The notes beneath the pieces were generated by a model, which saw only the letters and a program-made list of their open reading frames with translations, had not been told where the DNA came from and did not search any database. Below, one piece after another: positions 654 through 59,080 of a DNA stretch of 64,000 bases. Numbering within the stretch: position 1 is the first letter of the stretch; each line of letters starts with the position of its first letter. The stretch comes from Fistulifera solaris (lineage: Eukaryota), in the NCBI GenBank assembly GCA_030295235.1, contig AP026128.1, positions 496,001 through 560,000 of the forward strand. Reading direction: 5' to 3'. The translations under genes were made by a program, and so were the position numbers.

Positions 654-1338
654 GTTGCTCCGTCAATTCGTAGTAAATGTATGTTTTATGACGCAGGCAG
701 CAGCCGCACTTTGCGATTGGCGTCTCTGAGGTGGGTAATACGGTGGCACAGAAACAGCGTGTGCAACATTTGCTGCTCATGTCGACGCCGTAATTGAATG
801 AAAATGAAACATTTGCGATGAGTGTATCTTGCGTCTTGCGTCGTAAAAACGTGGTCTTATAATCGTGACCTGTTCATGACTAAAATCAGTCAAGCGTCAA
901 AAAAAGTAATCTACATTTTGAGACTATAGTCCACTTCGAACTACACGCTTATGAATACATTTCGACATCGATAATCAAGTTGTGCATTGCAAAATGATGT
1001 AAATCAGAGGTAAATCTTGCAGCCTCCTCGAGAAAACAAGGCGAAATGATTACCATCGTGTACCAGGTATGTGAGAAGAACTTCTCCCTGATGAGGACTC
1101 ATGACTAAGATAGATCCAGTCTTGAAGAAGTGTCTTTTTGAACAAAAAACTAGGAAGGGTCGGAAGGGTACGATTCAGTGCGCCTTTCGACGATAAACAC
1201 CGATTTGTGTTTTGCCAGTTGACCTAGCGGAGTTGACACTCCATCAAGACGAGTATTAGATAATAACTTCCGACCAACATCCCGTATTGTTTATATCTCT
1301 ATTTATATCATGTATGTTTCGTGCGAGTGAGGATTGTT

Positions 1339-2845
1339 TCATTTCATGTGAACCATCATTTCAAAGGGATTGCTGAGTAATTCCTGCACTCGTACGTGAA
1401 ATCGCGCAAGCTGGGCCCCATCCACATATCGGTGATCAGCAGTCCACGTTATCGGTAAGATACTCGATGCAATTACTTCATCGTTCCTTCCGAATCGCGG
1501 GAGCCGTTGCAAGCGTCCTATAGCTCCCATGGCTAGTTGTGGCGGGACCAGTACGGGCTGCAAGGACAGACCGGCTCCTAGGGCACCAATATTTGACAAT
1601 GTAAACGTAGGACGTGTCGAGTCAAGTGCAATCTCATTACGGTTTTCTTTTAGCGAATCCAGTTTTTCTTGAATCTCGGCAATGGACATCGTGGCACAGT
1701 CTCCTAACACGGGAACGACAAGTCCTCTTGCCGTATCCATTGCAACTCCGATTTGATGTTGCGATTGCATGCGAATGGAACTTTCCGTATTCTTAGCAGC
1801 GTTCAAAACCGGAAAGTCCTTCAACGCTATACTGCACGCCTTGACAATAAAGGCCAGCAAACTAAGGTTCTTCGACATTGCTGAGTTAATTTCTTTCCGC
1901 ATCGCTAGCAGCTGTGTAACATCGATTTCGTCTCCCAGGCACATGTGAGGAATTTCCAGTGATTGCGTCATGGCTTTTGCCATTGCCCGTGTATAGCCCC
2001 GTAGTTCCACGATCTCACCAGCCATATTGTGCGACGCAACTTCGTCTCCCAAAGCAAGCTTTTTTCTCGCTCATGAGTGATCGATTGCCGTCGACAAATG
2101 CCAGAACATCCGCTTTCAGCAGTCTTCCTTGCGGTCCTGTCGCCGGAATAACGGATGGATCGATCGCTTTTTCTTTGCAAAGTTTTCGTACAGCGGGGCT
2201 GGTCTGTATCTTGACCGTGGATCCCTGAGTGACGGAATCGTTTGGAGATTCGCTGATTGTCGTTGTTTCTTCGTCAATCATCATCGTAGTATGCGGTGAA
2301 TTTGCACTTGTTTCCAACGTCTCAGCAGCATCAACAAGGCTACCTGTAGAAGTCTCCAGAAAAACAAGAGGCTTCCCTACTTGAATCATATCGCCAACTT
2401 TCCCCGCAAGCTCCAAAATGGTTCCGTCAAAGCGGCTAGTGATGTCCACCGTTGCTTTGTCACTTTGAACCTGACAAATCAAATCAAATTGTTCGACAGT
2501 ATCGCCTGCTTGCACATTCCATTTGATCAGCTCGACTTCGTGAATGCCTTCCCCAATATCGGCGAGGAGAAAGGGAATGACAGCTTTGTCATTTTGAAGA
2601 GCCGGAGCAGTTGAGAAATGACTTTTCGTCCATTGATGGTGATAGATCTGCATTGAAGAGGATCGAAACGATCCCGCAATGCGACAAGTCACTGTCGCGT
2701 ATGACACAGAAGAATAATCTGAAATGACAGAACTGACGTTACACAAAGACGAACGTTGCACGAACACGGAACCTAATTTCTGTCGAGAAAATCTGGCCGC
2801 GAATGACCGTAGCTTCGACGACGCGCTAGTCATTCGTTGCGGCAT
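1339..2845 (-). CDS. DBT: Dihydrolipoamide branched-chain acyltransferase (E2 of BCKDH), mitochondrial; frameshift ~2060
   Basis: Mitochondrial-type N-terminus, lipoyl domain (LADIGEGIHEVELIKW...VQSDKATVDITSRFDG), E3-binding domain (SPAVRKL...TGPQGRLLKADV) and catalytic domain ending WTADHRYVDGAQLARF. Two overlapping ORFs join at a T6 run. Confidence 0.9.
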
Positions 2846-4166
2846 TTTGCTTCCAAGTTAATCAAGCGACACGATCAAAGACTTATTAGCGTTGTTCGCT
2901 AAATGCTCATTGCTGGTTTTACCATCGATCGAATGAAATTCTCTATGGTGAGAACGAACAAGCGCAGAATTCTTTTTGATGTCTTTCTTGTCGATGTCAT
3001 TGTTGCGTGTCACGTCAAACGCATTGATTATTGATTAGCGTTAAAGTTTATTACTTGTGAACTGATGCGATGCGCCACATCATCTCCAAGGCATTCTATT
3101 CTAAAGAAAATGGCAAAAGGAAAAGTGTCAATTTTATTCGATTTTTAATCTTTTAAAACGTATAATTTCCCATACTCTAGCTAGAGTATACATAATTTGA
3201 TTGAATTTCTCGTATAAATCCAAAACAAGTTCAGACGTCCCAACCAATTCGAATATATTAAGCACGGGAAAGGCCCAAGAGTTCAGGCACTAATCGAGCT
3301 ACTTATTGCTTCAATAAGTGACAGATGCACACACACCGAAGGTCTTTTATCTACTCGTGGATCAATTTTCACTTGATCTTTTTGAAAGTATACAAAGCAA
3401 GACCCCAGGGACTCACGCACAGGCCTAGTATAGGATAAAGAGTAGTATTTCGATTATGGTTCACCAATTCAAACCTGGAACCTTAGCTTTGTTGAGAAAC
3501 TTATTATTTGGTAGGATTGTGTTGGGCCTTTGTCCTTTTGTTCCTTGGATGTTCTTCTTCACAAGCTCTAGTAGACAGTAGACAGTAGCTTCCAGCGTCC
3601 AGCGTCCAGCGTCCAACGGTTTAGCGTTCGCTACTGCGCCACAGCTATTTCTGAATTTGAAATTTGAAATAGAATAGGTTAAGGGTTAAGTTAACCGCAC
3701 TAGTTATCACTGATTAGATTTCACATAAATATGATGCGATTTCAAACAAGTACCGCAAGACCAAGGGCTCTTCTCACTTCCGTTGAAGTTGAGATTGTGT
3801 GTGTTTGGAGTTTGGAGTTGCACTTCGCGACATTTCATTTATCGAGTGAAAAGTTGGAACAAGCGACAGAACGACGTCAAGAAGTATAGGGAGTGGGGCT
3901 TAGGTCCTTGGATACAGCTAATCGTAAGCTAAATCGCTTGGGCCTTCTATCTTAGAACTCCCGGGTTCACTTTGGAACGCCTCAAAAACGCACGGAGAAG
4001 GATCAACGCGCCAACCGCCAACAACTACCGCACACAAACTTGAGAATTATCATCACAATTCGCATCGCCGCCTTTGCGAACCAAGATAATCAACAACAAC
4101 AGCAGCGCTTTTCATCAAGTACCATTTAAAACATCGATTCCATTACAATACCCCACAGAAGAAACA

Positions 4167-5169: not shown

Positions 5170-5671
5170 TTAATGAGCCGCCGCACGGGCACGTTGCTGT
5201 GAGTTGACGTTCTTGATATCTTCCCGTTTGGCCAGTGCTCGTTTGTGCGAACCCAATCGACGCTTGGCAAACTTGTAAATTCGCTTATCGGCCGAAGAAC
5301 CGCCCGTCTTGATCATATCCAAAATACGACGTTCATAGGGAGCCAAACCGACGACTTCACGGGCAATTTGACGGCACATGGTGACGCGCTTGCCGGCTTT
5401 CTGCGAAAACGAAAAGAAGGAGTGAGTCGACAGAGACGAAATTGTGGCTTTTTTCGGATACACGAAGATAATTGGTGGGAAGCGGGGTAGAGAGACTCTG
5501 CTGTTTCGATAGCTGACTTTGACTCCGCTCCGTGCACACCAACTCGTTCGGCATTCGACACGATGACAGAAGCAAACTTACACCCTTGGAATGACTGGGC
5601 TTGGCTTTCAGTTCACGTTGTTGCGTGATGTGTCCGGAGTTGGCACCTTTGGCGTAACCGTTTCGTGTCAT
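5170..5671 (-). CDS. RPL36: 60S ribosomal protein L36 (eL36), 2 exons (5671-5582, 5400-5170)
   Basis: MTRNGYAKGANSGHIT...KPSHSKG / KAGKRV...REVVGLAPYERRILDMIK...KFAKRRLGSHKRA; in-frame GTAAGT...CAG intron 5581-5401. Confidence 0.95.
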
Positions 5672-6154
5672 GGTATATTCTATTTCAATAATATTAGAAG
5701 AATAATCAAATAATTGATCCTCAGCGTTGATGTTGTTGTTGCGTGGATGGTGTCGACGAGACGGACGGAAGGAGTTTTTTTCTACGTAGGTGTACGTAGA
5801 AAATGTACTGTGATTACCCTTTACCGCTCTACTACAAAAATTGTGCGCTCGTCCGGCAACAACGAAAAAAGTTTCCTAGAGAGCTATTTTTATCGTCACA
5901 GCTTGGTAAGGTGAGACCATGTGATGTTTCTTTCTTTGATCAATTCAATAAAATGAGTCGTTGATTCAAGTGTGTGTAGAAGAGAGATGGAGTCCTATCC
6001 ACGTCGGAATGATGAAGCCGTTTTCGTTTCGTTCACTTTGAATGATGTTTTCAAAATTGATTCTAGCTCGCTTTTACTCACGTGACCTTGTTTTGATTCC
6101 TCTGTTTTAAAGCTTGACTGTTTTTACTTCATTTATCTATAACACACACACAAC

Positions 6155-6497
6155 ATGCCGGACAATCGCTGGACGCAAAACACACGCCACTCGTACAATA
6201 CGGCTTCCGCCAAACTGCGGGCCATTCGCATGCCCGGTGGTGCCCTCAAAAGTCAACGTGTGACCAAAACCACCAAAGGACCCCGTTGCTCCGATTGCAA
6301 GAAAGTTCTTCCCGGAATCAAGCACATGAAATCGTCCGAATATGCGCGAACCTCCAAACGAGAACGTACCGTCAGTCGTTGTTACGGGGGGATCGACGTG
6401 CCATGCCTGTGTGCGCCAGCGAATTATGCGGGCGTTCTTGTTGGAAGAACAAAAGGCCGTCAAGAAGGTATTGGCGGAACGAGCGGCCAAGAAGTAA
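6155..6497 (+). CDS. RPL34: 60S ribosomal protein L34 (eL34); extra G in G6 run at ~6386-6391
   Basis: RHSYNTAS...RMPGG...KGPRCSDC...LPGI...RTVSRCYGG; removing one G gives [34 protein letters not shown] (TAA 6495-6497). Confidence 0.95.
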
Positions 6498-7460
6498 ATA
6501 ATAGAGAAATCTAATCCATCAAAATGATGTTACGGTTTTTGCTATTGTGTGTTTTTGTTGTCGATTGTATGTAAACGGCAGGGAGGTTGGTAGAAAAAGC
6601 ACATCGTTCCTTACTGGATGCGATCTTCCTGCCTGCTGTTTGGTTATCAAAAGATTAACGAAGTTAGACTCCATTTACGTTCCGCGATCCTGCTTTAGCT
6701 TGAGGGTTAGCAAGGAAATCAACGTCGTCGTAGCCACAACCTGCATCGCTTCTAGGCCACAACGATGTCATTATTGAGTGCACTAAAAGTGTTTTGAGGA
6801 AATAATTACGGAGTATTCTATTGCGGAGTTCTTTCAGTACGAAATACCATCAACATTATTATTTTTAAACGCAATGTATTGTTTCATGGCTCCGAAAATC
6901 GTTCGGATCGGTGACGGGCAATTTTACTATAGTATCAAAGTGTCAGTTTACGCTCTCCAGGAATGAATTTCAGTCACGATGGAACTACGAAAATAATTTT
7001 TTATTAATAAATGAAACGGCAACAATGAAGTCGACAAATGCTAGCACTAAGTGCACGGTCAAGTGATATTGCATTTACATCACGCAGTCTGAAATGACAC
7101 GGCAACAAGAGAAAAGTTTGCTTGTTTATCTTGAAAAGTTATAAATGTGTTGTGCAATACAGTATATCTAATCTCCATTTAAACTTGTTTTAATAAAAAA
7201 GAAGCTCATCGTCGCTTTACATACCCTTTCGATTTTTCACCCCGAAAAGATCCGGCCTTTCTATTATACCAGTATAGACTCAAAGTGTAGTTCAACTTTA
7301 CCAAGACCGGATTATCATCTCGAGTCGCGAGTGTCAGAGTTACGGACGACATCATTCAACTTTCTTCGCACTCTGAGTGCGTGCGATGATCGACATGGCG
7401 ATCCACTTGGAACGAACGCCTTATTGTGTAAATAAGGCAGCCCCGTCAAGTAGGTTCTGA

Positions 7461-10055: not shown

Positions 10056-10676
10056 CTATTGGTGTTGGCAGCACTACTAGCAATACTGATGGTGACCCGA
10101 GACACAATGTTGCGTATACAGCAGCGATTTATTACACCAGGGTTCACTTTCTGGAGGCTCAACGTGTGGATGCGGGGATGATTGGGAACCTTTTATCATC
10201 GAGACCAGAATGAAAACGTTTTTCATTTGGTAAAGTGTGCGTGCCGACAAAAACCGACCCCACGATAAGCCTCAAGAACATCAGCTACACAACGTCTCTC
10301 ATGTCCCTTTTCACATTTCTTCGGGTAGGGTCTGTTCTACCAAAAAAAACCGTTGTCATGGTAATAGTTGGATGTTTTATTACCTTGTCAAGTGTCAATA
10401 ATTGCATCGCACCAGTTTTGACGGTGACGTAGGGTGTTACTTCGTGTGACTGAATCGAGATCCAGTCCCGGAAATAACACGCACAGCGTTTATTATATTA
10501 TTGACACCACAATTCTTTTCTTCACATTAACATCCTTTATTCCGCTGTATCATGTGTCATTTTTATGCTTATTCGACGTACAAACGAAATTAATTGCGAT
10601 TTCATTTCGCGCGGGCTCGAAAAGTGAATTTTGAAGCCCGTAAGCGCACTCAAACTAGAAGGAGAAAGGCATCATC

Positions 10677-16659: not shown

Positions 16660-17828
16660 AAAATGATTGTGATGCGCTTCGCTTTCCGTCCTGCCTGCTC
16701 ACTGAGAAAGGCAGTCGACTAAAATCGTTTTCTCGCTCAAACGTCGTTTACACAGGTAGGCAACCGAAATGAAGTAAACGACGACTGGCTGCAAGAGAAG
16801 TTACAGTCACGTTTGACTATCGTAAATACCCCGGAATGAATGATGGTTCGACTTGACAAAAAATGAAGCGATGGTTCGTTTGCGGCGCCCCGAGTGAGAG
16901 ACTAACGCAACACTTCAATACGGTAGACGACTATCTCAATTAATAAAAAAAGCTAACAACACGTTTGATATCTCCGAAAGCCTGTCACGTCTTAATGAAT
17001 CTGAATTGGTTTTAGACTTCACGGTATCGTTTATTTGAAGGAGCAAAACGATGCAAAACTCCATCCCAGCGCGCGCAGGGACTTCAGGTTATAGTGTTTC
17101 GCAGTACTCATTGTAAAATATTTAAGGCACTGCCGGCGTGGATGGACTGTGTTTAGTATAAGCTCATTACAAAACTATAGCATGAGAAGTAGGAGAGTCT
17201 CAAGAGACATTTTAGTGGACTTGCCAAAAATTCCGCCAAGTCAAAACCTGAACGGGCAAGGCTGACCGGTACTGGGACATTTACTATATCATTAGGTGTA
17301 CCAAATTATTTAGCTTTCACCGGAGTGCGTCCTCTCCGACATTTTTGGCGGGAATGCAAATCGGACTGCCAAAAGACTCCTCCATGCTTTGATCATCAAG
17401 AACAACATCTAACTTCTTAAGCTCGGCCCTCTAGAGCTCAAGAGCCGTTAACTGTGCTGCTATGAGCAACTCTAGAGGGTGAATTTGAATCAACAGCTTG
17501 TGAATTGTGCACGCCATCAGGTTACCCTCAATCCGATCCAAACTAACCACATCACAAGCGCTTTTCGGAAGGGAGAAAAAGAGCCAAATGATGAGAAAAG
17601 TCAGGAACACCTTGTTTTGATTTGATGGATCTAGAGTGCATTAGATTTTTGTTTTCATTCTTTCTGTTTCCCAAAAAAGTAAGATTACGGAGCCAGGCCT
17701 CTTCACTGGTGTTCCTCCTAAGTAGCCCGTCATCAAGCCATTCTCGTTACAGAACACAAACTCAATTTTGAGCACATTCCTAAGTTGCGTTCAAGCCTTG
17801 TTAACTTGCAAATGTTTGCCTCTAGTTT

Positions 17829-18119
17829 TTACTATAGACCCAAAGTGTTGGTTTAAGGAACCACGACCACGACTGCATTTCAGTCATGAATCACAGCTTC
17901 GCCTCGCCAAACCGCTATATCAACTATCAACTTCCGTATTTTTTTGCAAAAAGTGTTATGTTCCTTTTGTTGCCATCACGATACAACATATATCTTCTCA
18001 TTGGCAAAGCCTGTGCTGCTTTTCTTGTCGAAATTCCTTGTACAACGCCATGCGTCCGGGATTACTGTAGGCCAAAGTGTTGGTTCAAGGGTTACCACGA
18101 CTGCACCCAGTCCTGAATC
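17829..18119 (+). repeat. Direct pair of ~60-bp conserved core element (17829-17892 and 18062-18119)
   Basis: ttactatagacccaaagtgttggtttaagg...ccacgactgcatttcagtcatgaatc versus ttactgtaggccaaagtgttggttcaagg...ccacgactgcacccagtcctgaatc. Confidence 0.85.
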
Positions 18120-18283
18120 GTGAGCGGTCGCTGCAAAACAGAAAATAATTGCTCTTCGCAGCTCATCGGCTTTTCAAAGAATAGGGTCGAAGTCGAAGGT
18201 CGAAGCGAGTTGAAGGCAGTTGTTTATGCGACAAACTAACCATTTGTGTACGAACAAACTCGTCGAAGGAAGTAAAGCCGACA

Positions 18284-18952
18284 ATGATCAAGCTATCAAT
18301 AATACTTACGTTAATTACCGGATCCTTATCATGGCAACAAGATTCTCGTTGCCTCCATCGCCGCGACGTCATGGGCAATATACTATCACTTCCATTTATT
18401 GTGCCGTCGAAAGCACATGGTGAAGACTTTCCCACTTCTGCTGGTCGTAAGGGATGTAAGACGGTCAGCGATCCCAGTCGGACCGCTGTCACGTGCACCG
18501 GAGACGTACTGCTGGCCATACCCAACAACACTCGACTTTCCGGAATTTCCGCCACGGAGAACGGTGTGTCAACTTCTGCCGTGAAAAATCCCAGTCGTTT
18601 CGCCGCTCCGTGGAATTACTCTACGGAAACGGACCAAGCGAGCAAAGCATTCAGCAGTTTACAAGCCGCCTTATTAAAAGTGGAACCAACGGTTGAGATT
18701 GATACGGTCGACACAAACTTTCGGTCTTCTGGGTACTATTATTTGCATGCTACATTGAGTTCGCCAGCTACGGGAACGGATGATATCGAATTCATAATCA
18801 GGCCTGAGGATAGACTTGCCCTCTTTCGGTCGGCTAGCCGCACTTCTGTTTTTGTTTACCCATTGACACAGCCAGTGACAGATGGCTTGCGAAATAGAAA
18901 GCGGATGGAAAAGATTCGAGACGAGCTGGGTTGGCAAGACTTGAGCTATTAA
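18284..18952 (+). CDS. DUF1499-family protein, probably thylakoid-lumen targeted
   Basis: Signal peptide ...TGSLS-W, then twin-arginine RRDVMGNILSLPFIVPSKAHG; DUF1499-like motifs ENGVSTSA..NP..APW, YLHA, DDIEF, FRSASR, D.LRNRKRMEKIR. Confidence 0.75.
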   Translation: MIKLSIILTLITGSLSWQQDSRCLHRRDVMGNILSLPFIVPSKAHGEDFPTSAGRKGCKTVSDPSRTAVTCTGDVLLAIPNNTRLSGISATENGVSTSAVKNPSRFAAPWNYSTETDQASKAFSSLQAALLKVEPTVEIDTVDTNFRSSGYYYLHATLSSPATGTDDIEFIIRPEDRLALFRSASRTSVFVYPLTQPVTDGLRNRKRMEKIRDELGWQDLSY

Positions 18953-19455
18953 GTTTTGATCAGCTTTGGCAAAATGGAAGCAACAAAGAGCGGATTTCCA
19001 TTTTTGTTATCGGCATGCAGAAGAATTCTTAGTTGCAGTATTCTTTTGTCGATTCCATGGTCCGCTTTGGACTGGAGATAGTTAGGATCGATAACAATAC
19101 TCCCTAAAACATCTTAGAAACCTTAAATATCTATCCACACTAAGGTTAAGTATAATTATTCATCTCACTTGGCAAGAAAGACAACAGAAATTTGTACAGT
19201 AAAACAATAATTATGGACGTGAGAACCAGTTACTCGCTGATCTGCTAAGCGCAAAATATGCCTCAAATCACCCTTTAAGTAGAGTACGTGTTATCTAACC
19301 CATTCGTGCATGTATCCATGTTTTTCGCGCGGTTGCACTTTCAAAGAAAGATACGCCGAAACGATCTGAATGGATCGCTCATTATTCTCCTTGTTCTGTC
19401 TCTCCCCTCAACAAAACGCACAAGTTCTTTGAGTTTTGAGTCCCCTTTGTCAACA

Positions 19456-20394
19456 ATGAAGACGTATTATAGTTTGTTGGCGCTGCTTTTGAGTTTCGTT
19501 GTGACGGCTGCGCAACAGATAGGATACTTGGAAATCACCGAGGAAGATTGGAGTATTGTTCAGAATGCGGCGGATATAGTATCGGAACGATTCGGGCGTT
19601 TTGGTTCATTCGACAATGTTTTCCGATATCGTACCAGCAGAGCCGCTCTGGTTCAGTCCGATGGTCGATGCTACGTTGCTTTCCGAGGACGGCGACTGGC
19701 TGCATTGAAGCTCTTTGTCCCTCGGCGAACAAAGGATTACTGTGTGGATAACGAATGCTGCCTTGTTCAAACAAAATACGAAAGGGACCTTGGTGATCTT
19801 GTGTCGAAAATAAGACCCGAATTGGAAGCTTGTGTAAACGATTACTGCACCGAAATGGATTGTGTCGTAATCACTGGCCATGGCATCGGTGGTAGTCTCG
19901 CTGCTTTGGCGGCAATGTCGTTCAAATCATACAACCCTTTCGGAATTACCTTTGGAGAGGTGCAAAATGTGGAGACGCCGTGTCCCTTAATTGATTCCGA
20001 GCGTTGGTGGCGATTTATCAACACAGAGGAAGAGGAGGGAGCTTTGGTTTACGACCGGCTTTCGGCTCGACGATACTCTCGGTTCCCCAAGGCTCTTGGT
20101 CACATTTTGCTGCTTTCTTCTGTTGACAGTACGGCAGTAGCGCACATGGGCATTGATCGCAAGTGGGAATATGAATATGACACACGTCGAGTGCGTATTC
20201 TTCCGGGTCGACGAACGAATAGCATGGATAAATATCAAGATCGTATTTCGGCTCTGACGGCAGAGTACGCAACAACACTAACATACCCAATCGCGGTTGA
20301 GGGTTTTGACGAGGGTTCGGTGTGCAATTTTGGAGGTGAATGTGAATCACGACTTTGCGGGGAAAGCGAAGGGAAACGAGCGTGCCTTGCATAG
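19456..20394 (+). CDS. Secreted class-3 lipase-like protein with Gly in place of catalytic Ser
   Basis: Signal peptide MKTYYSLLALLLSFVVTAA; CYVAFRG, VVITGHGIGGSLA (canonical GHSxGG), ITFGE, RFIN; Cys-rich C-terminus. Confidence 0.75.
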   Translation: MKTYYSLLALLLSFVVTAAQQIGYLEITEEDWSIVQNAADIVSERFGRFGSFDNVFRYRTSRAALVQSDGRCYVAFRGRRLAALKLFVPRRTKDYCVDNECCLVQTKYERDLGDLVSKIRPELEACVNDYCTEMDCVVITGHGIGGSLAALAAMSFKSYNPFGITFGEVQNVETPCPLIDSERWWRFINTEEEEGALVYDRLSARRYSRFPKALGHILLLSSVDSTAVAHMGIDRKWEYEYDTRRVRILPGRRTNSMDKYQDRISALTAEYATTLTYPIAVEGFDEGSVCNFGGECESRLCGESEGKRACLA

Positions 20395-20449
20395 TGTTTT
20401 TCAAAGCTGTTACGTTAATGAATCATTAAATGCAACATATTTGTCCAAA

Positions 20450-21409: not shown

Positions 21410-21790
21410 TTTGTTCGAATTCTTCTCTTTGTGATGTGAATTCTGGAAGGTGAGTTTTGACTTTTGACTCACCTCTGTAATTCTGACGCTGTCGTCAGTC
21501 CTCGAGAAAATTGTGGAGCAGTTATGGTTTATGGTGAAGAGAAGGCGAAAGGAGGAAGTTTGCATTATAATAAAAATCATTACCGGTTTCTTTACTTTTC
21601 ACTATGCGTATGCCGAATAGCTTAAATTGGAAATAGATACATATTTCAAAATGAGTACCGCGCGCGAGACGCGATTAGGCATTTGAAATTTAGACTGATC
21701 CAAAGTGTAACGGTGCTTTTTGCCTTCGGAGGAAAGCCGAACAACAACAAAAGTTTATGTTTTCGAAAATGAAAAATTTTGACCTAATAC

Positions 21791-22668: not shown

Positions 22669-22971
22669 CGAGCTCTACCCTTCTTTAAAGACCCACAGAA
22701 GCGATTCGAAGACACATGAAACGTCACTGAGAAGCGTGGCAACCATTTCGTTGAAAATCACAAGCCAAAGTCTGTTTATCATCCGTCACCGCGTCAAACT
22801 CGCTACTTCAAACAATCGCAAGGGCAATCGGGGCAAGGCGCCGTGGCAACCTTCAAAAACGTCTTCAGTTTTTGTTCGATGCATCGGTAGCTCTCGAATA
22901 AGAAAAGCGCAACCCGGCCTGTAAATTGCGACGAAGTCTTTCCTGTCGTCCTGGAAACAACAAGTGGGTGT

Positions 22972-32170: not shown

Positions 32171-32283
32171 CGTTGGCTAAGTTTACACATGAAGTATGCA
32201 TAAAACGTATAGACCTTTGGTTAATGCTTGAGTGTAGTAATAAAGACTTGCACTTTTCGACAACTATAGGCCTACAAGAGTTC

Positions 32284-32565
32284 GATTCGTGACTGCAGGG
32301 CAGCCGTGGCGAAAAACAGACACTGTATTATTGTCCTCTGGTAATTCAGGAAGACAACTATTCCCCACGCTTCATGACGTAAACAATCCTGATTCGTGTT
32401 CCAAATAAAGTGGTATATGTATGATGTACGCGACAAATAATGTAGTCTAGTGAGCCAAGTTAGCAAGACGAACAGACGTTTCAATAAAAGTCTGGATCGC
32501 GACGATTACGCTTCGTGACTGCCATGCAGTCGTGGATAAGTTGATATACACTTTGTCCTATAGTA
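32284..32565 (-). repeat. Pair of conserved core elements (32284-32309 and 32510-32565)
   Basis: gattcgtgactgcagggcagccgtgg and gcttcgtgactgccatgcagtcgtgg...tacactttgtcctatagta, 226 bp apart; reverse complements match the 17867 core. Confidence 0.8.
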
Positions 32566-32730
32566 CCTTCATTTTATTTGGACCCTTTAATGCAGACCAA
32601 ATTCTGCAGAAAGGGCGCCATCTGTCGTCCGAAAGTCCGAATGCATTCTCGTTGCACCGAAATAATCAGCATCATCGCAAGTATCACTATTAATCATTTC
32701 ATTTACCACAAGAGTCCTACTGTAAAAGAG

Positions 32731-34355: not shown

Positions 34356-34468
34356 ATAGGTAACGGAATGGAATGAATCAAGTGAGAGCAATAAGATTAA
34401 TAGTTACGGAGTAAAAAACTACACTATAGCTATTTTAAAACTTATTCGACTGTTTCTACTACGCTACT

Positions 34469-36935: not shown

Positions 36936-37155
36936 GTCGGCTTTGATTCTAAAGGGTGGTCTCGTAGACCTCAGTCGTTGAACGCTGAGCTCTTGTACGG
37001 CGAGATCTCAATATATATTACATGATGGAAAGGAGATACGTAGTTTATAGCTGTATCTTGTTATAATAAAACAATTATCTCTCCAAACGTTTGTTGCAGC
37101 GCAGCAGTCTGGCTCTATCGCATCGCGGTCGCAGACGAGGTCGCAGAAGAAAAAT

Positions 37156-37405
37156 GATTCATGACTCAGTTGCAGTCGTCTTGAGATACGGACAACACTT
37201 TAGACAGACACACGCTTCACAAGTTTCATCTACGTTACTAGAGATGAATTGAAAAAGCTGCCTACATAATTAGATCGACATAAATACCAAGAAAGTAGGA
37301 AGCTCGACAAGCTTGCAGAACGAATGAGGGTTAGGTAGCCGTCGGACTCGGAAGAATATTAGTTCATGACTCAATTGCAGTCGTGGCAAAAGTCGAATAC
37401 ACTTT
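37156..37405 (-). repeat. Pair of conserved core elements (37156-37201 and 37361-37405)
   Basis: gattcatgactcagttgcagtcgtc...caacacttt and agttcatgactcaattgcagtcgtgg...tacactttt, 205 bp apart. Confidence 0.8.
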
Positions 37406-37620
37406 TAAATGTTGTACTCCGTAGTTATTATTGATGGCCAAAACCTCGTCGCGATCGGGAGACTTCCGTTCCGTTAGGTCTCCGATCAGGGTGAAGGGTG
37501 AACCTCTTCCGATAGCTCTCCCGTTAAGGGAGACGTTACCTGACTACATTAAACATTAGAGTAGAGCACTCGCAATTGGATGTGGTACTAACTACTTAGA
37601 GGCCTTCCATCCTTCATTAG

Positions 37621-38773: not shown

Positions 38774-39124
38774 TTCATTAGTTCTACTTAGGTCACGCAC
38801 AATAACCGCACAATCATTCGCGTTGTGCGTTTGTTCGTTTGTTCCGTTCCGTTCCGACTGCCGACAAGATGATCAGAACGCTGCATTCCTTATTATCATA
38901 CTTGCCCTTCCGTCTTTTACAACATTAACATGTCGATAATTGAAACGAAGGAGCGACGATCATTCGTCACGATTATGCAAAAATATGGGGCTAAAACGGC
39001 TGTACGGAGTATTTTTTCTAGGATATGGAACAAACGATAATAACAGCAAATTGTTATAGACTAATAATCGACGAGAAAAGCAGTGGTGATAAAAAGAAGA
39101 GATACACTGATATTCCCCTTTATT

Positions 39125-39990
39125 CAACTAGACATCCAAATCGGAACAACGCGACTCGATTATTTACAGTCCCGAGAAGAAACTTTTGCAATTTATTTTC
39201 AACCAACCAGGACGTCCTCTAGGAACCGTTTACGACAGGAACTTCTGCACAAAAGTGAAAATACATATAAGTATAAAGGTAGCGGTGTTGATGTTTCTGG
39301 TGATTTATCATGAAATGAGTCTCGTGAAATGTTTTTCTTCGAAGATTTCAAAATTTACTATGACATGGACTGTTGGTTTACGACAAACGCGACTCCATTA
39401 TTTACAGTCCCGAGACGAAACTCTTGCAATGATTTCCAACAACGTCCTAGGGACCGTTTACGACAAAAACTTCTTCACAAAAGTGAAAATATAAGTATAA
39501 AGGTAGCGATGTTGATGTTTCTGGTGATTTATCATGAAATGAGTCTCGTGAAATGTCTTTCGTCGAAGATTTCAAAATCTACTATGACATGGACTGTTGG
39601 TTTACGACAAACGCGACTCCATTATTTACAGTCCCGAGACGAAACGGTTGCAATTATTTCCAACCAACCAGGACGTCCTAGGCGTTATTGCTCTTTGGTC
39701 CTAGGGACCGTTTACGACAGAAACTTCTGCACAAAAGTGAAAATATTAGTATAAAGGGAGCGGTGTTGATGTTTCTGGTGATTTATCATGAAATGAGTCT
39801 CGTGAAATGTCTTTCTTCGAAGATATCAAAATTTACTATGACATGGACTGTTGGTTTACGACAAACGCGACTCCATTATTTACAGTCCCGAGACGAAACG
39901 GTTGCAATTATTTCCAACCACCAGGACATCAGAGGCAGCGTTTATTACGCTTTCGACCGAACATTCTGCACGAAAGTCAACATATAAGCA
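39125..39990. repeat. Tandem repeat, ~224-254 bp unit, ~3.5 copies
   Basis: acgcgactc(c/g)attatttacagtcccgaga at 39149, 39387, 39611 and 39865, with near-identical flanking blocks. Confidence 0.95.
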
Positions 39991-40249
39991 GAAAGGTATT
40001 GGTTGTGCCCATTTTTCATTTGTACTAATGACTAATGACCAAGCTAACTAAAAAAGTAGCGTAGGGGGGATGGGGGATGCGTCTTGCATTCTGTACGACG
40101 AAAGCTCAAATTTCCGCCGAATAAAATGCGCTCGATTTTATTTCGCACCTTTCTTTCCCATGCACATCTGCTTTTCGCAAGCCGACTATGATCTCATTCA
40201 ACTGCTGCTGTCTGTTGAATTAACATAACAAGTAGAACAACAAGCGACC

Positions 40250-43320: not shown

Positions 43321-44201
43321 AACCTCAACATGTCGCGCTATCGCGCTGTAGGTTTATGGAATTGCTACAAAAATAACTTTAGTTCACTTTTTTATCAATC
43401 TGCTATAGCTAAAATAGCTCGACTTGCTCAGTGCCATCTGCCTCAATTTAAGTCGGTTAACATAATGGGCACTGTACAAACCAGAAGTGTCAGCTATTGA
43501 ATGATGCTAAAAAGCATGGTACTAGAGACCACATAGGTTATTTGATGACGGAGTCTTGGATGTGATAAACATGTGGTTTTTTGTGTATTCGTGATGAGAT
43601 AATGCATGCGGTTCGGACACATCCCAACATTCCGAGAGTTCATCTCTCTGCCAAAGCTTCAATTTTTCTGTAAACAGAGAAGCTGTAAAGTGTTTACATT
43701 TCATAGGTCTAAAGAACTCCGATGTTAAAACTTGACTGCCTAGTTCCACTGATGTTATCGAGTACAGGAGATTGTAGGATGACTTACTCTCTTGACACCC
43801 ACAGATGTCCTCCGTTTGAGCAAAATGAAAATTTACACTAACTCAAGCAATGTTTAAAGGGAACTATAGTCGGAAGGAAGGACTTAGGAATCGGCCGAGA
43901 CCCTCCTTAGGACTCGTGACTGTTCAGTAATGATTAAAAACTACCGTGATTCAAAAAGCCTGGTTTTTGGCCTTTTGTAGGCCATATTTTTTTAGCATTG
44001 CAATCAACGCAAAAAAAGCACGTGACGAACACAAGCAAACAAGTAAATACAGGTTAAGATAAATAATCAAAGAGTCATGGCAACAGAGCAGAGTTACCCT
44101 GGAGATGAAAACAAATATTCAGTTTCTTGCTCCGTATCTGGATCGTATGATAGGGGAGCAGCGTTCATTTCAGTCGGGCCTGGTAAGGTGACAAGAACAT
44201 A

Positions 44202-45885: not shown

Positions 45886-47491
45886 TTACTTTGTCATGTC
45901 CGGCCATACCATAGGTTGACGCAACTCATCCATGGCGGCAAAGTGACGGTGCGGGTTTTCCAAATAATCACCCACTTCGTACCACCACGGCCGGTCCACC
46001 TTGGGTTTGCTCGGATTCAAGACCTTGGCGGTTTGGTCACTCGGTCGAACCGTATCACGGGCCGCGACCGGCTCCACACCGAGCAGTTGCGAGATTTTGG
46101 TACTGGCGAGAATGCCACGGAAGGAGTTGGCCGGTGGTTGTTGTACAGATTCATTTTCGGCAAAGCAGCCACGATTTTGGATGCGACAGAATTGATCTGG
46201 GTTCATTCCAGCATTTTTGGCAATTTCGTATACTTTCTTCATGCTTTCCTCGGAAAGTTCGGGCGTCCGACTGTAAATGAATGCGCCCTCGTAGGTGTTT
46301 TGACGGGTCTTTCCATTGTAATAGATGAATTTGAATTCTTCATCTTGACCTAGCTCATTCTCACCAATCACATACCAGTTTTCCCAGAATTCTGTATCAA
46401 ACAAGAATAGCGTCAGAAGGATGCGACACATCGTAATCAATTCCCCTCGTTGAAAAACACTTACTGAGACCAAACATCTCTCCCTCTGAATGCGCCGTAC
46501 GTGCATAACTTTGTTCTTGATCCGTACCGGCGTTGACCACATACCGTTGAGCCGACGAAGGAACATCAAAGACCATAGTCTCATGCGTATTGTACGCATT
46601 CAATCCAATGGACTGACTGGTCGATACACCTTTGAACACGACTGATTCGCGGGTATTCGTCGGTGGCGGCGGCGCTCCGTCGGGGAGTAAATGCGGCATA
46701 CTGAATTCCACATCCATGTGCAACTGACTCACGACCGAAGACGGCCGCTGGAACCACACGTCATTGTCGTTGCTGGGACGACGAAAGGAATTGCGTTGAC
46801 AGGCGTAGCAGTCGTAATTGGGATTGTAACCAATGACTTTGTACCAGGAACCTTCCAGTGTCCGCGGATCGAAATTGAGAACGGTAGGAGCCGGTGCGGG
46901 CGGTTCGTTGCCGTACGCATCGCCTCCACCGGGCAATATCGCCACTTTGATGCATTCGTGATCTTCAATGGTACATTTCAAAAGATTGTCGAGGTTTTGG
47001 TTTCCGTAGCGTGCCATGCATCCAGTAATACAAGCATTGTCTCCGAGACATTTAGCGGTACAAGTCAATCCCTTTCGGCAATCGGCATCATCTACTAAAC
47101 AAGCGGTAGTTTGTGCACTGCACTGATTGACGAGACACGTTTGATCGACTAAACTGGTATCGAGTCCACTGCCGTATTTCGCAGACAATTCATTTTCTGC
47201 CAGTGATCCTTGTGGCGATCCCAGTAATAGTGATAACGAAAGAAAGCCAGCAGCCGCTAGACTCGCCCAATGGTGGGTGGGGTGTTCATTCTGTTGTTGT
47301 TGTTGTGGGCGATGTAGTTGTAATGCACTCGCGGATGATTGAGTGAATGCTAAGGATTGCTGCGGCAGCGACGGTGTAAAAGCATGACAGGAACATGCTA
47401 CTAGTAGAAGGATTGAAGAGACTCGGCGTTTTCGCGATGCATTATTGTGTGTTCTGGGGGATAAAGAGGACGATTTGCTGATTGCGACCAT
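45886..47491 (-). CDS. VDL2: Violaxanthin de-epoxidase-like protein 2; intron 46464-46392
   Basis: Tripartite presequence (…SCHA-F, hydrophobic lumen signal …SLA-ENEL); Cys-rich domain (CTAKCLGDNACITGCMARYG); lipocalin domain (GSWYKVIGYNPNYDCYACQ, MFGL/KFWENWYVIG, YEGAFIYSR); adjacent to ZEP1. Confidence 0.88.
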
Positions 47492-48074
47492 TTTACGCTT
47501 GCTAGGAGTCAATGCAGATGTCAACTTCAATCAAACAGCAACTAAACTTGTGAACAGGCTTCCTTTATAACAAATGATTGCTGTTCAATGTCGACAACCT
47601 CTGGATTTCGCAATCAATCACAAAAAAGCTCACGCCAGCACAAAAAGATCGAGCCAAATGGACCCCTTTTGCTTCAAGAAAAGGTGGTCGGCGTGTGTGC
47701 GCGCAATGTTGAAGAGGACAAAGATCGGCAGAGGGATTGGGGTAGGTCACTGATTGAGTGCCGTGAAACACAGGTTTGGGTATCACCGTGAATCAAAGTG
47801 TATTTGACGTCATATAGATATACAGTTTCCTGATATACTGCAAGTGACGTGGTGTTTCTCGCTAGCGTTGCGTGAGATGACGACACCGCTCGGACGCGCC
47901 AAAAACAGTAGGTCACCTGATTTAAGAGCGGATGACGCTCAGACGCTGAAGTTGAAGTGCCGAACCGGACGAGCCGTTCGCGTTTCTGCACAACACAAAA
48001 CATGTCAGTTTTTTCTCTACAACAAGTGCTCTTCCTTTCATTCCATTCATTTCTATACATATTATCCCTTTTCA

Positions 48075-49733
48075 ATGAATTTCATTGCGTGGAGCTGTCT
48101 GTTGGCCACAACGGCGAACGCCTTTGTGGTTACCCCGTCATCCTTCCGGACAACTTCGTCTTCTCTGTCGGCCGCGACCCTCGAAGCACCCGTTCGGACT
48201 CCCGAAACACCCGATCGCGTCGCTACAGTCCGGGAACGTTTTCGAAGAGCCTCGGAAGATGCCAAGCAAGCCGTTGGGTGCTCGACCGAAGATACCGGCA
48301 ACGAGTTTTGGAGAACACCCGTCTCCAAACGCGACGTCACCAGCGATCAACCACTCCGGGTCGTCGTGGCCGGTGGAGGCGTCGCCGGATTGGTGACAGC
48401 CGCAGCGTGTCACGCCAAAGGCATGCAGGTTGCTATTTTCGAACAAGCCAGTCAATATGCCCCGTACGGTGGTCCGATTCAAATTCAATCCAATGCATTG
48501 CGAGCACTCGAACGCATCAATCCGAAAGTCTATCAGGAAATCGTCGCGGCCGGGACGGTGACCGCCGATCGCGTCAGTGGATTGAAAATTGGATACAAGA
48601 AGGGTGTTTTCTTGGGACTCGGAGAACAATACAACAAAGGAGACTGGTTGGTACGCTTTGACACGTTGCAACCGGCTTTGCAGGCGGGTTTGCCGGCGAC
48701 CGTCGTCGTCGATCGGCCCGTCATTCAACAAATTTTGTTGCAACATGGAGTACCTCCAGGGACAGTGCGCATCAAAAGTCGTATTGCCTCTTACAAAGAA
48801 CTTGGACCAGGAGAAGGATTGGAAATTAAACTAGAAGACGGTACTGTGGCGTATGCGGATGTTTTAGTAGGAGCCGATGGGATTTGGAGCAGTGTCCGAC
48901 GTCAAATGCATGATTTGGAACGTGGTGCGGATGGTTTCGCTGCCTCGGGAGCGGCAGGTGGCGCCTTGAATGAAGCCGAAGCAAGGCGTATGGCCAAAGA
49001 CAGTGTTCTCATGGCGTCCAATGCGAATCGACGTTATTCTGGATTTACGTGTTATGCAGCCTTGACGGAACACAAGGCATCGAACATTGAGGAAGTGTCG
49101 TACCAAATTCTTCTCGGCAAGGATAAGTACTTTGTTAGCACAGACGGTGGTGGTGAGCGACAGCAATGGTTTGCTTTAATCCGAGAAGAAGCCGGTGGTG
49201 TCGATCCAGAGCCCACAGCCGACAATCCGACACCAAAATTGAATAGGCTATTGAAAGAATTCAATCATGAAGAGCCGGGGGATCAGAATGGAGATGTGTG
49301 GGATGATTTTGCTTACGAGCTATTCAAGTCGACCCCCGAAGAAGCTATTAAACGACGTGATTTGTACGATGGAGCGCCCTTACTAACAAAAGGATGGACG
49401 CGTGGCCAAGTTGCGATCTGTGGTGATGCTGCACATCCGATGATGCCCAACTTGGGGCAAGGTGGTTGCCAGGCGACGGAAGATGGATATCGTCTTGCCG
49501 AAGAACTGGCCACCGTCAAGCACACGACCGAAATCGAAGGTGCCTTGAAAAGCTACTATTTCAAGCGCATTCCCCGTACCACCATCATTCAAATCTTAGC
49601 ACAATTAGGTAGTGATCTGCTTGTCGACTTCGACAAAATGATGACGATTCCTTTGGTCGGACCATTCTTTCTCTACATGACTCAATTCAGCATGCCTTTC
49701 ATCTTGCGCTTCTTATATACTGCGGAATTCTAA
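48075..49733 (+). CDS. ZEP1: Zeaxanthin epoxidase-family FAD monooxygenase (diatom ZEP1 type)
   Basis: Signal peptide ...[61 protein letters not shown]. Confidence 0.9.
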
Positions 49734-53315: not shown

Positions 53316-53619
53316 TCTTTATTCTTAGTTGTTGTGTTGATTGATGAAGTGGGTGATGTGAATTGTAAATGATCGTTAATTACAAAGATACTACGTAACA
53401 ACTTGGATCTCGTCCTCGTTGTCTCATTCTTTCGTTCATTTTTTCGTGATCGGTTTTTCTTGGAGGAAATGTCAATAGGTCATGAGCTCAAAAAAAGTAA
53501 TCTACACGTTGCGCTATAGTTATTCGAGCGTATTATTTTTTAATAAAATAAAAAAAAACTCCAACAATCGTTACGGACGTAGTTCATTTCACGCAGCATT
53601 TCGTTCGAATCGAAACAAC

Positions 53620-54420
53620 TGTGACCAGGAATAAAGTTTCTATTTATGGAATGTGCGCTTGCCTTCGTTATGATCAAATCACAATTTTCAGATTTTTGGA
53701 ACGCATTCCGTTCGCACTGAACAAACTGGTCCAGAATTTCTGGACCAACGCAGAATTTCTGTATGAACAGAAATAAGTCTACCAGAATTTCTGGAATGTG
53801 CACTTTCCTTCGTTATGATTTATGATCCATGACACAGTTTCCAGAATTTTTGAAACTCGCACTTTCTCTCGTTGTGTTCCAAAACATATTGTCTAGAATT
53901 TCTGGAACGTGCGCAGCATTTCGGTAGGATCGAAAAAACTGGTCCAGAATTTCTGGACCACCACAAAATTCCTGAACGACCACAAATAACTTGTTTAGAA
54001 TTTCTGGAACGTGCACTGGCTTCGATCAAAGCACATTTTCCAGAATCTCGGATTGCGCCCTTTTCTTTGCTATGACCTAAAGCACAATTTCCAGAATTTC
54101 TGGAACCTGCGCAGCTTTTCGGTAGGATCGAAAAAAACTGGTCCAGAATTTCTGGACCACCACAGATTATCTGTATGACCAGGATTAAATCTACCAGAAT
54201 TTCTGGAATGTGCACTTTCCTTCGTTATGATCCATGACACAGTTTCCAGAATTTCTGGAACGCGCCGTTTCCTCCGTTATGATCCAAAGTACAATATTTC
54301 CAGAATTTCTGGAAGTTTCGCATTATCTCGTACGCATCGAAGAGCTCGTCCAGAATTTCTGGAGAGCCACAGAATTTCTGTATGATTAGATACACATTTT
54401 CCAGAATTTCTGGAATCTGC
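53620..54420. repeat. Array of ~15 near-palindromes TCCAGAATTTCTGGA spaced ~44-58 bp, with ~205-bp higher-order unit
   Basis: Copies near 53730, 53781, 53839, 53892, 53943, 53994, 54038, 54089, 54142, 54193, 54244, 54298, 54349 and 54399. Confidence 0.92.
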
Positions 54421-54503
54421 ACCTGCTTTCGTTGTTGCAACGCAAAAATATATCCAAACAACAACTCGCAGTCTTTTCTTTCTCAAACAAAATAAACTAT
54501 CAC

Positions 54504-57368: not shown

Positions 57369-57594
57369 TGTATGCTTATCAATAAAGTCTCGTTTCTTCT
57401 ATTTTGACGAAAGAGACCTTGTCCATTGGCAAGGAAGAGAATGAATGAGGAATACCTGGTAACCTTACAATTTTTTTCGATGATGTTTTGCTTGGCTCAA
57501 TGGCTCGTGGCTAAAATGGAGAACTTCCAAAAGGAGTACACATAAACTTACTGTAATCTTCAGGCCTTGTCTGACCACGACCCAATCTAAAACG

Positions 57595-59080
57595 CCATAC
57601 CGAAGCAATGAGAGCCCCACGGTTGTCCACAAACAAAAGCGCGAAGTGTATAATCATGATCAAATGCCATGGAAAACCAATATATAAGCTAAATATTATC
57701 TTCATTCGAAACGCAATTATTGCGTCGAAAGGTATCCGTATCGTCGAATGCCATTTTCACTATGATAGTAAAGTGTTGGTTCTACGCGATCGCGACTAAA
57801 TTTCACTCACTTGAAACTCCACCGAAGCAATGAGAGCACCGTCCTCAACAAAAATGCGAAGTGTACCAGTATAATCGTATGCCATGGAAAACCAATATAT
57901 AAGCTAAATATTATCTTCATTCGAAACGCAACTATTTGCGTCGAAAAGCATCCGTATCGTCGACTGCCATTTTCACTATGATGGTAAAGTGTTGGTTCTA
58001 CGCGATGCGACTAAAATTCAGTCACGATTAACACATAAGGTTACGATATTGGTGGTCTTCAAACACAAGCGCGAAGCGTATAATCAATAATCAAATGCCA
58101 TGAAAAACCAATATATAAGCTAAACATTTTTTTTATTCGAAACGCAACTATTTGCGTCGAAAAGCATCCGTATCGTCAAATGCCATTTTCACTATGATGG
58201 TAAAGTGTAGGTTCTACGCGATGCGACTAAAATTCAGTCACGATTAACACATAAGGTTACGATATTGGTGGTCTTCAAACACAAGCGCGAAGCGTATAAT
58301 CAATAATCACATGCCATGAAAAAGCCAATATATAAGCTAAACATTTTTTTTTATTCGAAACGCAACTATTCGCGTCGAAAGGCATCCGTATTGTCGACTG
58401 CCATTTTCAATATGATGATGGTAAAGTGTTTGTTCTACGCGATCGCGACTGAAATTCAGTCACGATTAACACATAAGGTTGCGATATTGGTGGTCTTCAA
58501 ACAAAAGTGCGAAGTGTATTATAAATAATCAAATGCTATGAAAATCAGTATATAAGCTAAACATTATTTTTATTCGAAACGCAACTATTTGCGTCGAAAA
58601 GCATCCGTATCGTCGACTGCCATTTTCACTATGATGTTGAAGTGTTGGTTCTACGCGATCGCGACTAGATTTCAGTTACGATCCACCAAAGTGGTCTTCA
58701 AACAAAAGTGCGAAGTGTATAATAAATAATCAAATGCCATGAAAACCAGTATATAAGCTAAACATTATCTTTATTCGAAACGCAACTATTTGCGTCGAAA
58801 AGCATCCGTATCGTCGACTGCCATTTTCACTATGATGTTGAAGTGTTGGTTGTACGCGATCGCGACTAGATTTCAGTCACGATCAACATATGGTTACGAT
58901 ATTGAAAATGCCACCAAAGTGGTCTTCACACAAAAGTACGAAGTGTATAATCAATAATCAAATGTTATGGAAAAACCAATATATAAGCTAAATATTATCT
59001 TCATTCGAAACGCAATTATTTGCGTCGAAAGGCATCCGTATCGTCAAATGCCATTTTTATTATTATGGTAAAGTGTTGGT
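57595..59080. repeat. AT-rich tandem repeat, ~200-230 bp unit, ~7 copies
   Basis: tg(c/t)(c/t)atg..aaa.ca.tatataagctaaa...attcgaaacgcaa at ~57665, 57880, 58095, 58312, 58534, 58735 and 58963. Confidence 0.95.

What the first reader, a model, noticed from the sequence alone, without database searches (positions are those of the whole stretch)
871..59080. Conserved ~55-60 bp hairpin core recurring intergenically at ~205-250 bp spacing, shared by dispersed pairs and two unrelated satellites
Seen: the core TTTACTAT(A)G-N3-5-(C)AAAGTGTTGGTT-N8-14-C(A/G)CGACT-loop-CAGTCA(C/T)GA occurs only between genes, on either strand. Pairs lie at 874/1099 (225 bp apart; the 1099 copy is hairpin only), 17867/18095 (228), 32284/32510 (226) and 37156/37361 (205). 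A single strong copy is at 6922-6980, with weaker ones at 7271, 10445 and 53478. The same core appears once per unit in the 39.1-40.0 kb array (tttactatgacatggactgttggttt...cgcgactccattatttacagtcccga) and in the 57.6-59.1 kb array (cactatgatggtaaagtgttggtt...cgcgactgaaattcagtcacga). DNA between cores looks unrelated from locus to locus. Inference: a fixed core with variable ~160-190 bp spacers suggests either (a) a rolling-circle Helitron/Helentron-type terminus (hairpin followed by CTATAG|T) that captures flanks and seeds tandem arrays, or (b) a protein-bound, nucleosome-phased element such as an origin, boundary or small-RNA promoter. I do not recognise it as a described diatom element.
Basis: partly seen in the sequence, partly recalled or inferred. 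Interest (0 to 1): 0.85.

Follow-up and report, generated by a model that had tools for sequence, protein, structure and literature searches.

The report
Conserved intergenic DNA module in diatom
A short DNA module of four conserved boxes recurs every few genes between the genes of a diatom, alone, in pairs or in small arrays with room for about one nucleosome between copies; it is real and I found no description of it, most likely a protein-binding site, though a tiny rolling-circle jumping element is not excluded.

Summary
The core is real. A four-box profile finds 20 strong copies at 9 loci, outside coding DNA. Left out in turn, 9 of 13 training copies beat the best hit in 20 shuffled windows. 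Copies 1099 and 10445 are hairpin-only; a copy at 60978-61042 was missed. Contigs from other loci match only the ~66-bp core, with unrelated flanks on both sides, so it is not the end of a longer repeat family. Neighbouring cores always face the same way, with 147-196 bp between them in 13 of 14 cases. Pair mates resemble each other more than random mates (2 of 945 matchings). Array edges lie in decayed cores, which fits local duplication. Tests for a Helitron found no partner inverted repeat, no CTRR end, no transposase in the window and no covariation. The second haplotype seems to keep the cores at 2 of 3 loci (indirect). Best reading (0.45): a host-bound DNA module duplicated in nucleosome-sized steps. 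Main rival (0.30): an ultra-short Helitron2/HUH element. The scan noted what is probably this family on other DNA of this genome (e1-7505401, e1-7529945).

The parts
871..933 (-). Full core (box 1 ACTATAG, box 2, GAC..AGTC arms); extra box GTCGAAA about 46 nt upstream of box 2; second of a pair
   Evidence: (26.2 bits left out)
1096..1130 (-). Hairpin-only copy (boxes 3-4), with the extra upstream box; first of a pair
   Evidence: (8.6 bits, not a training copy of that model)
6923..6983 (+). Core with boxes 1, 2, 4 and the extra box; left arm decayed
   Evidence: 40.1 bits left out
7268..7330 (+). Weaker core, 345 bp after the 6923 copy
   Evidence: 18.4 bits left out
10444..10472 (+). Hairpin-only copy with a long loop; not significant as a full core
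   Evidence: 8.9 bits
17828..17893 (+). Best full core; contigs from other loci stop matching at its two edges; carries a private duplication of about 5 bp
   Evidence: 55.3 bits left out
18060..18120 (+). Full core with the extra upstream box; pair mate of 17828
   Evidence: (49.2)
32283..32342 (-). Core lacking box 1; lies just past the poly(A) end (32231) of the CBP/p300 gene
   Evidence: 31.3
32509..32568 (-). Full core; pair mate of 32283
   Evidence: 48.7
37155..37215 (-). Core lacking box 1; a second-haplotype contig appears to match it up to 37201, the edge of box 2
   Evidence: 31.2
37360..37419 (-). Core lacking box 1; pair mate of 37155, sharing the TGAGTCATGAA variant
   Evidence: (30.1)
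39120..40150 (+). Array A: units of 224-254 bp, three full long-loop cores (box 2 at 39367, 39591, 39845); outer cores near 39130 and 40125 decayed (the latter judged by eye)
53470..53523 (-). Left-half copy (boxes 1-2), same subtype as the 871 copy
   Evidence: (16.2)
57548..59082 (+). Array B: units of 201-230 bp, six full cores (box 2 at 57770-58840); homology ends inside a seventh core at 59082; a decayed core-like stretch at about 57548-57595 (judged by eye)
60978..61042 (-).
   Evidence: (21.5 bits left out)

Best explanation
A host-maintained DNA module of about 55-66 bp, bound by a sequence-specific protein complex on double-stranded DNA. SHOWN: it has four boxes (ACTATAG; AAAGTGT; CGACT; AGTCAYGA) with near-fixed distances among boxes 1-3, sometimes a fifth box upstream. 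It sits between genes on either strand regardless of gene direction. It is the whole repeat unit, with unrelated flanks. Neighbouring copies face the same way about 150-195 bp apart. INFERRED: the module is copied locally by tandem duplication of a ~200-250 bp segment. The spacer then decays while the boxes are kept. Unequal exchange inside paired cores expands a pair into a short satellite. INFERRED, weakest step: the complex acts on chromatin and not on one gene, as a nucleosome-positioning or boundary site or a replication-licensing site, with one nucleosome between two bound cores.
For: Core-only repeat: in run X1, contigs leave the window at 17828 (7 contigs), 17867 (8), 17889 (7) and 17893 (12). 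Their loose parts agree only 0.46-0.55, and X2 shows the same. Boxes stand out against saturated positions: mean column identity is 54%, with 6 invariant and 9 near-invariant columns in 13 copies. Box 1 to box 2 is 9-10 nt in 11 of 11 rows with box 1; box 2 to the first GAC is 21-25 nt in 15 of 15 rows (rows include several copies per array). The extra box occurs in 5 of 15 copies against a 2.7% background (P 4e-5 for that one test, found post hoc). Gaps between cores are 147-196 bp in 13 of 14 cases, 6 of 7 loci; diatom mononucleosome DNA is about 150 bp (PMC4504042, passage). Pair mates are more alike than random mates (2 of 945 matchings), but their flanks are not (92 and 550 of 945). Array homology stops inside cores. 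A second haplotype about 88% alike in genes drops below 80% in most non-coding stretches, yet joints 37201-37309 and 17721-17866 resume or stop at box edges. There is no covariation in the stem (298 of 500 shuffles as high), no target-site duplication, no Rfam match and no transposase among 50 frames.
Against: No binding, chromatin or replication data were seen. The loop between the arms is 6-7 nt in most copies but 10-13 nt in others, which suits a single-stranded hairpin better than a rigid dimer site. Many copies lack box 1 or an arm, as decaying mobile relics would. Retention in the second haplotype is indirect: the 17.8-kb joints have sides of 21-29 letters, which the tool flags as unreliable, and 39 joints were not shown. 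At 32.3 kb the second haplotype skips 32236-32814 with both cores, contents unknown. The published Fistulifera ARS motifs do not match.
Confidence: 0.45

Rival explanations
1. An ultra-short non-autonomous rolling-circle (Helitron2/HUH-type) element. Read on the other strand it starts T|TC(A/G)TGAC with a hairpin and ends about 35 nt later in CTATAG|T. One palindrome would serve as both left terminus and right subterminal repeat. It would hop locally, and end-bypass would copy core plus spacer. It may be partly domesticated.
For: On that strand 10 of 15 rows begin with TC and 2 with CC; every copy with an intact box 1 is followed by T; no target-site duplication. Loop length varies. Both edges are fairly sharp. 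FoHeli1/2 start with a TCAG hairpin, carry their 3' hairpin repeat 38-51 bp from the end, and leave partial copies of the first 31-85 bp (PMC5148889, passages). HLE2 elements were found in 2 of 2 Bacillariophyceae genomes (PMC11417382 Table S10).
Against: No separate inverted partner within 2 kb for 13 of 13 copies (best 9-10 of 12, same as null). No compensatory changes. No RepHel in the window and none among the earlier notes returned for this genome (AI notes, partial coverage). Spacers show no sign of a multi-copy family at the three pairs laid. Array edges are not at the TC or CTATAG ends. The shortest non-autonomous Helitron2 elements in the passages I read are 657-830 bp. The T|T context may simply be part of the boxes.
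Confidence: 0.3
2. An snRNA-type external promoter (upstream element plus TATA-like box at a fixed distance) that drives thousands of unrelated short RNAs from the flank, each ~220-bp unit being one transcription unit.
For: Fixed box spacing and unrelated downstream DNA. Precedent: Cuscuta microRNA loci share a U6-like element (bioRxiv 2022.07.06.498962, abstract).
Against: No Rfam family at E up to 5 and no tRNA in the window. Distances to the first T4 or T5 run scatter from 1 to over 370 nt in both directions, like background. CTATAG is a poor TATA box (own knowledge).
Confidence: 0.12
3. An old dispersed satellite or retrozyme-like repeat with no host function, whose boxes persist because they promote their own duplication or recombination.
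For: A continuum from young arrays (85-86% matches) to pairs with only faint flank likeness to solo cores. Precedent: conserved boxes at monomer junctions of unrelated Meloidogyne satellites (PMC3694981, abstract).
Against: Solo cores and non-recombining pairs keep their boxes while the flanks are at noise level. No ribozyme family matches, and no hammerhead core motif is visible (motif recalled). No spacer families are seen.
Confidence: 0.13

Closest known systems
Satellite DNAs with a shared conserved box: Meloidogyne Box 1/CENP-B-box-like motifs (PMC3694981) and the 19-bp box of alphaCenH3-bound repeats (PMC8097292); abstracts only
   Same: Unrelated monomers share one conserved motif; junctions lie in the motif; the motif marks protein-bound chromatin in the second case.
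   Different: Here the shared part is a 55-66 bp four-box module, mostly solo or paired between genes every 6-7 kb, not in large or centromeric arrays; no sequence likeness was tested.
Helitron2/Helentron termini (FoHeli1/2, PMC5148889; CRe-1 and Helitron-1N1_CRe, PMC3627910; passages)
   Same: Hairpin some 35 nt from a conserved end, TC or T start, T-rich context, no target-site duplication, link to tandem repeats.
   Different: No ATIR pair, no shared interior, no compensatory changes, no RepHel seen, about ten times shorter.
Canonical Helitron1
   Same: Hairpin and a TAG-ending motif, TC at the other end.
   Different: The end is CTATAG, not CTRR; the hairpin is about 35 nt from the end, not 10-12; the context is T|T, not A|T.
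Fistulifera solaris centromere/ARS motifs (bioRxiv 2021.11.10.468027, sections 6-7)
   Same: Short motifs spread at intervals along chromosomes, often stacked; by eye motif 1 holds AAAGT and CGACTG at about the same distance.
   Different: The motifs give no score with the core models and do not pick out cores in the window; they lack box 1 and the right arm.
snRNA-type (USE/PSE + TATA) promoters, including Cuscuta microRNA loci
   Same: Short boxes at fixed distances ahead of unrelated sequence.
   Different: No snRNA, no fixed terminator distance, thousands of sites if the window is typical.
Non-LTR retrozymes (PMC7229834, search listing only; unit size recalled)
   Same: Dispersed dimers and short arrays of units of a few hundred bases with a conserved core.
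   Different: No ribozyme match, no covariation, spacers not shared between loci.

Membership tests
Helitron1 | 3' end CTRR | tested here: not met
   End motif is CTATAG; definition from PMC5148889
Helitron1 | Hairpin 10-12 nt before the 3' end | tested here: not met
   About 35 nt
Helitron1 | 5' TC and insertion between A and T | tested here: inconclusive
   TC in 10 of 15 rows; the base before is mostly T, not A; no empty site available
Helitron2/Helentron | Asymmetric terminal inverted repeats of 8-15 bp at both ends | tested here: not met
   No inverted partner above null within 2 kb for 13 of 13 copies; only the side beyond the hairpin was searched
Helitron2/Helentron | Terminal hairpins kept by compensatory changes | tested here: not met
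   Covariation 0.123 against shuffled 0.130; 0 of 4 pairs compensatory; 13 copies only
Helitron2/Helentron | Insertion at T|T or after TTTT without duplication | tested here: inconclusive
   Context is compatible and no duplication is seen, but no empty site was read
Helitron2/Helentron | Autonomous RepHel partner with the same termini | not testable with these tools
   No genome held; none in the window
Helitron2/Helentron | Family interior shared between copies | tested here: not met
   Loose ends unrelated on both sides; flanks unrelated in the window
Replitron | Short direct terminal repeats around a shared interior; HUH Rep gene | tested here: not met
   No shared interior; the paper found none in diatoms (PMC10288648, passage)
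MITE / TIR element | Terminal inverted repeats and target-site duplication | tested here: not met
   No duplication above background; the neighbouring element 37621-38773 shows both, as a positive control
F. solaris centromere/ARS motifs | Match to the published consensus motifs 1 and 3 | tested here: not met
   motif 2 not tested; supplements not readable
Replication origin (ARS) | ORC binding and episome maintenance | not testable with these tools
   Needs an experiment
snRNA-type promoter | Downstream snRNA-like gene and terminator at a fixed distance | tested here: not met
snRNA-type promoter | Transcription start at a fixed offset; SNAPc binding | not testable with these tools
   Only contigs were available
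Retrozyme | Self-cleaving ribozyme fold in each unit | tested here: not met
   No Rfam match at E up to 5; consensus structure is 4 pairs, -1.3 kcal/mol
Satellite DNA with conserved box | Unrelated monomers sharing one motif, with array junctions in the motif | tested here: met
   Two unrelated arrays share the core; homology ends inside cores
Satellite DNA with conserved box | Box bound by a protein or by CenH3 chromatin | not testable with these tools
   Needs ChIP or pull-down

The most novel reading that the evidence does not exclude
Thousands of sequence-defined modules set chromatin or replication domains every few genes in a diatom and are renewed by copying themselves one nucleosome away, possibly as a domesticated ~60-bp single-hairpin HUH element, a eukaryotic counterpart of bacterial REP/REPIN sequences (analogy recalled, not tested).
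Probability: 0.25. Interest if true: 0.85.

Novelty: new variant of a known kind. Interest (0 to 1): 0.55.

Why it matters
Diatom origins and boundaries have no established consensus sequence; ORC ChIP in Phaeodactylum found none. A defined 60-bp module at about one locus per 7 kb (some thousands genome-wide if this window is typical) gives a direct target for footprinting, episome and deletion tests in a transformable, two-subgenome alga. There the subgenomes also give a built-in test of constraint. If it is mobile, it would be far shorter than the Helitron2 derivatives in the papers I read. It also shows how unrelated satellites can arise from one shared seed.

Tried and rejected
No whole genome is held, so no genome-wide scan was possible. 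Pattern scans of viral contigs (3 stretches) and metagenome contigs (84 stretches) gave single matches without box 1 or pairing, and no BLAST match to the window. I treat them as chance. They say nothing on other diatoms, since even the wetland relative did not appear. No RNA holder listed on record; run X3 is RNA by guess only, and its lack of cover over the cores is not used. Run X6 is a low-coverage holder and is not counted as independent. Published ARS motifs: 0 window matches at 3 mismatches; 3 of the top 20 hits in cores for each motif, with top scores no higher than shuffled motifs; no HMM score. The by-eye likeness was rejected as unproven. Directional promoter: 5 of 8 informative loci face a gene start; 2 divergent loci are uninformative. 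Rfam, tRNA, terminator distance, target-site duplication, ATIR partner and covariation tests were negative. Likeness to IS608 guide sites, hairpin-ribozyme loops, AP-1 sites and the yeast ACS was considered from memory and dropped as untested. Earlier-finding look-ups by sequence, by words and nearby returned nothing.
Full report
Setting. The window is from a pennate diatom (best named hit of the farnesyltransferase alpha protein: Seminavis robusta, 50%). Two haplotypes about 88% alike in genes occur at similar depth, and a 91% identical protein exists. The name is inferred, not shown here.

Observation. Leave-one-out nhmmer recovered 8 of 10 seeds, 7 of them at 19-34 bits, against a best null of 11.1. 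A four-box model scored all 13 left-out copies at 16-55 bits, 9 of them above the best null of 24.5. Twenty hits of 21.5 bits or more lie in 9 loci, none in the gene intervals that cover 66% of the window. The 61-kb copy overlaps the tail of an open frame that I read as run-on behind an assembly error. Copies 1099 and 10445 are hairpin-only. 6922 pairs with 7271 at 345 bp.

Anatomy. Box 1 ACTATAG lies 9-10 nt before box 2 AAAGTGT. The left arm GAC(T) starts 21-25 nt into the module from box 2, and the right arm is AGTCAYGA after a loop of 6-7 or 10-13 nt (the script picks the first GAC-like word, so two or three loop values are too long). A fifth box, CGAAA, stands 44-48 nt before box 2 in 5 of 15 copies (background 2.7%; found post hoc). 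The stem is weak: 3 of 14 strands fold with z below -2, and pair counts do not exceed shuffles. One outer pair shows A-T in 4 and G-C in 3 copies but is broken in 5.

What repeats. Laying public contigs on 17650-37590 shows summed depth 776-837 at 17860-17864 in X1, against 12-21 for single contigs. The tool warns that this is no copy number, but it means some tens of other contigs. These contigs leave the window at the core's edges (17828, 17867, 17889, 17893), with long loose parts that agree only 0.46-0.55 among themselves. X2, from another study, shows the same. So the closest relatives of this core share no flank with it or with each other. Several contigs hold two core matches in the same direction (joints 17887/17891-18062, 17893-37391), consistent with pairs elsewhere; sides are short. 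X1 may be the source of the assembly and X2 is near-identical, so neither is independent evidence of conservation.

Second haplotype. It falls below 80% in many non-coding stretches. Joint 37201-37309 (X1 and X2, sides 45 and 30) stops exactly at the edge of box 2 of the 37155 core. Joint 17893-37342 puts a core next to that spacer. Joint 17721-17866 (side 29) resumes at the left arm. I read this as cores kept at 2 of the 3 pairs laid. At the third, 32236-32814 is skipped whole, contents unknown; it could be an empty site. The evidence is indirect and the tables were cut.

Pairs and arrays. All 5 pairs and both arrays are direct. The gap from one core to the next is 147-196 bp in 13 of 14 cases. 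Pair mates are more alike than random mates (2 of 945 matchings reach the observed score), while 40- and 100-bp flanks are not (92-747 of 945). Array B loses homology inside a core at 59082 and begins just after a decayed core-like stretch. Array A begins at the left arm of a decayed core and ends near another (outer cores judged by eye). This fits expansion in place by exchange inside paired cores, and not insertion of rolling-circle concatemers cut at element ends. Orientation is independent of neighbouring genes: 5 of 8 informative loci face a gene start.

Mechanism. I favour a host-maintained protein-binding module (0.45). Boxes are kept while the positions between them and the flanks are saturated, spacing among boxes 1-3 is rigid, no interior or transposase is seen, and spacing leaves room for one nucleosome (about 150 bp in Phaeodactylum). 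Which process it serves is not shown; boundary or nucleosome positioning and replication licensing are the candidates. The main rival (0.30) is an ultra-short Helitron2/HUH element. The TC start with a hairpin, the end about 35 nt on, the T|T context and the variable loop fit it, and HLE2 occurs in diatoms. It fails the ATIR, covariation and interior tests. A small-RNA promoter (0.12) and a functionless box-bearing satellite (0.13) remain.

Comparison with print. The F. solaris centromere/ARS motifs share AAAGT and CGACTG by eye but fail formal tests. Meloidogyne satellites with shared boxes are the closest precedent for the architecture (abstracts). I found no description of this module in searches of an open-access library, which lacks most subscription papers. 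Seen: passages of PMC10288648, PMC11417382 (plus one supplement search), PMC5148889, PMC3627910, PMC12628747, PMC4504042 and bioRxiv 2024.07.07.602421; passages and sections 6-7 of bioRxiv 2021.11.10.468027 (supplements closed); abstracts of PMC3694981, PMC8097292 and bioRxiv 2022.07.06.498962; listing only for PMC7229834.

Earlier notes. Two notes on other pieces of this genome describe a 53-55 bp four-box module every 7-15 kb (e1-7505401) and a ~65-bp core in arrays whose remainder decays (e1-7529945). They are probably this family; their sequences are not shown, so identity could not be checked.

Verdict. Real, abundant, undescribed as far as searched, mechanism open. The Helitron-terminus reading as stated is not supported; the protein-bound reading is the more likely. 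Interest 0.55.

Noticed in passing
window 37621-38773: Non-autonomous hAT-like element: 21-bp terminal inverted repeats starting CAGGCC, 8-bp target-site duplication TTCATTAG, internal 168-bp tandem repeat; no Pfam match in its frames. Superfamily assigned from recalled features.
   Followed up: partly
window about 37440-37590: A second, higher-copy repeat rich in hairpins, next to the 37360 core (summed depth up to 1340 in X1; sequence). Edges and class not worked out.
   Followed up: no
window 53640-54445: Third satellite: ~52-bp subunits with CCAGAATTTCTGG palindromes in ~205-bp higher-order units, resembling heat-shock elements (recalled). It lacks the core; probably the family of e1-7528217.
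   Followed up: no
window 35695-36935: Gene without a Pfam match and with raised depth (61-128 in X1), so probably a multi-copy family.
   Followed up: no
window 26925-32231: CBP/p300 gene split over several frames; one-base insertions in all runs at 30852 and 31176 point to assembly errors; intron 27484-27553 and a poly(A) end at 32231 in X3.
   Followed up: partly
window 45886-49733: A VDE-domain gene and a FAD monooxygenase (ZEP-like by my reading) stand head to head, as in xanthophyll-cycle gene pairs (pairing recalled).
   Followed up: no
window 5170-6514: RPL36 and RPL34 are a divergent pair with no core between them.
   Followed up: no
window 3421-3449, 24514-24562, 47779-47811, 26228, 43866-43933: Weak box 1-2 or partial matches in non-coding DNA, within null range; possibly decayed cores.
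   Followed up: partly
window 61023-62081 (-): Frame without a Pfam match, rich in Cys/His (HNH-like by eye), with a probable one-base error near 61235 that lengthens its tail.
   Followed up: no
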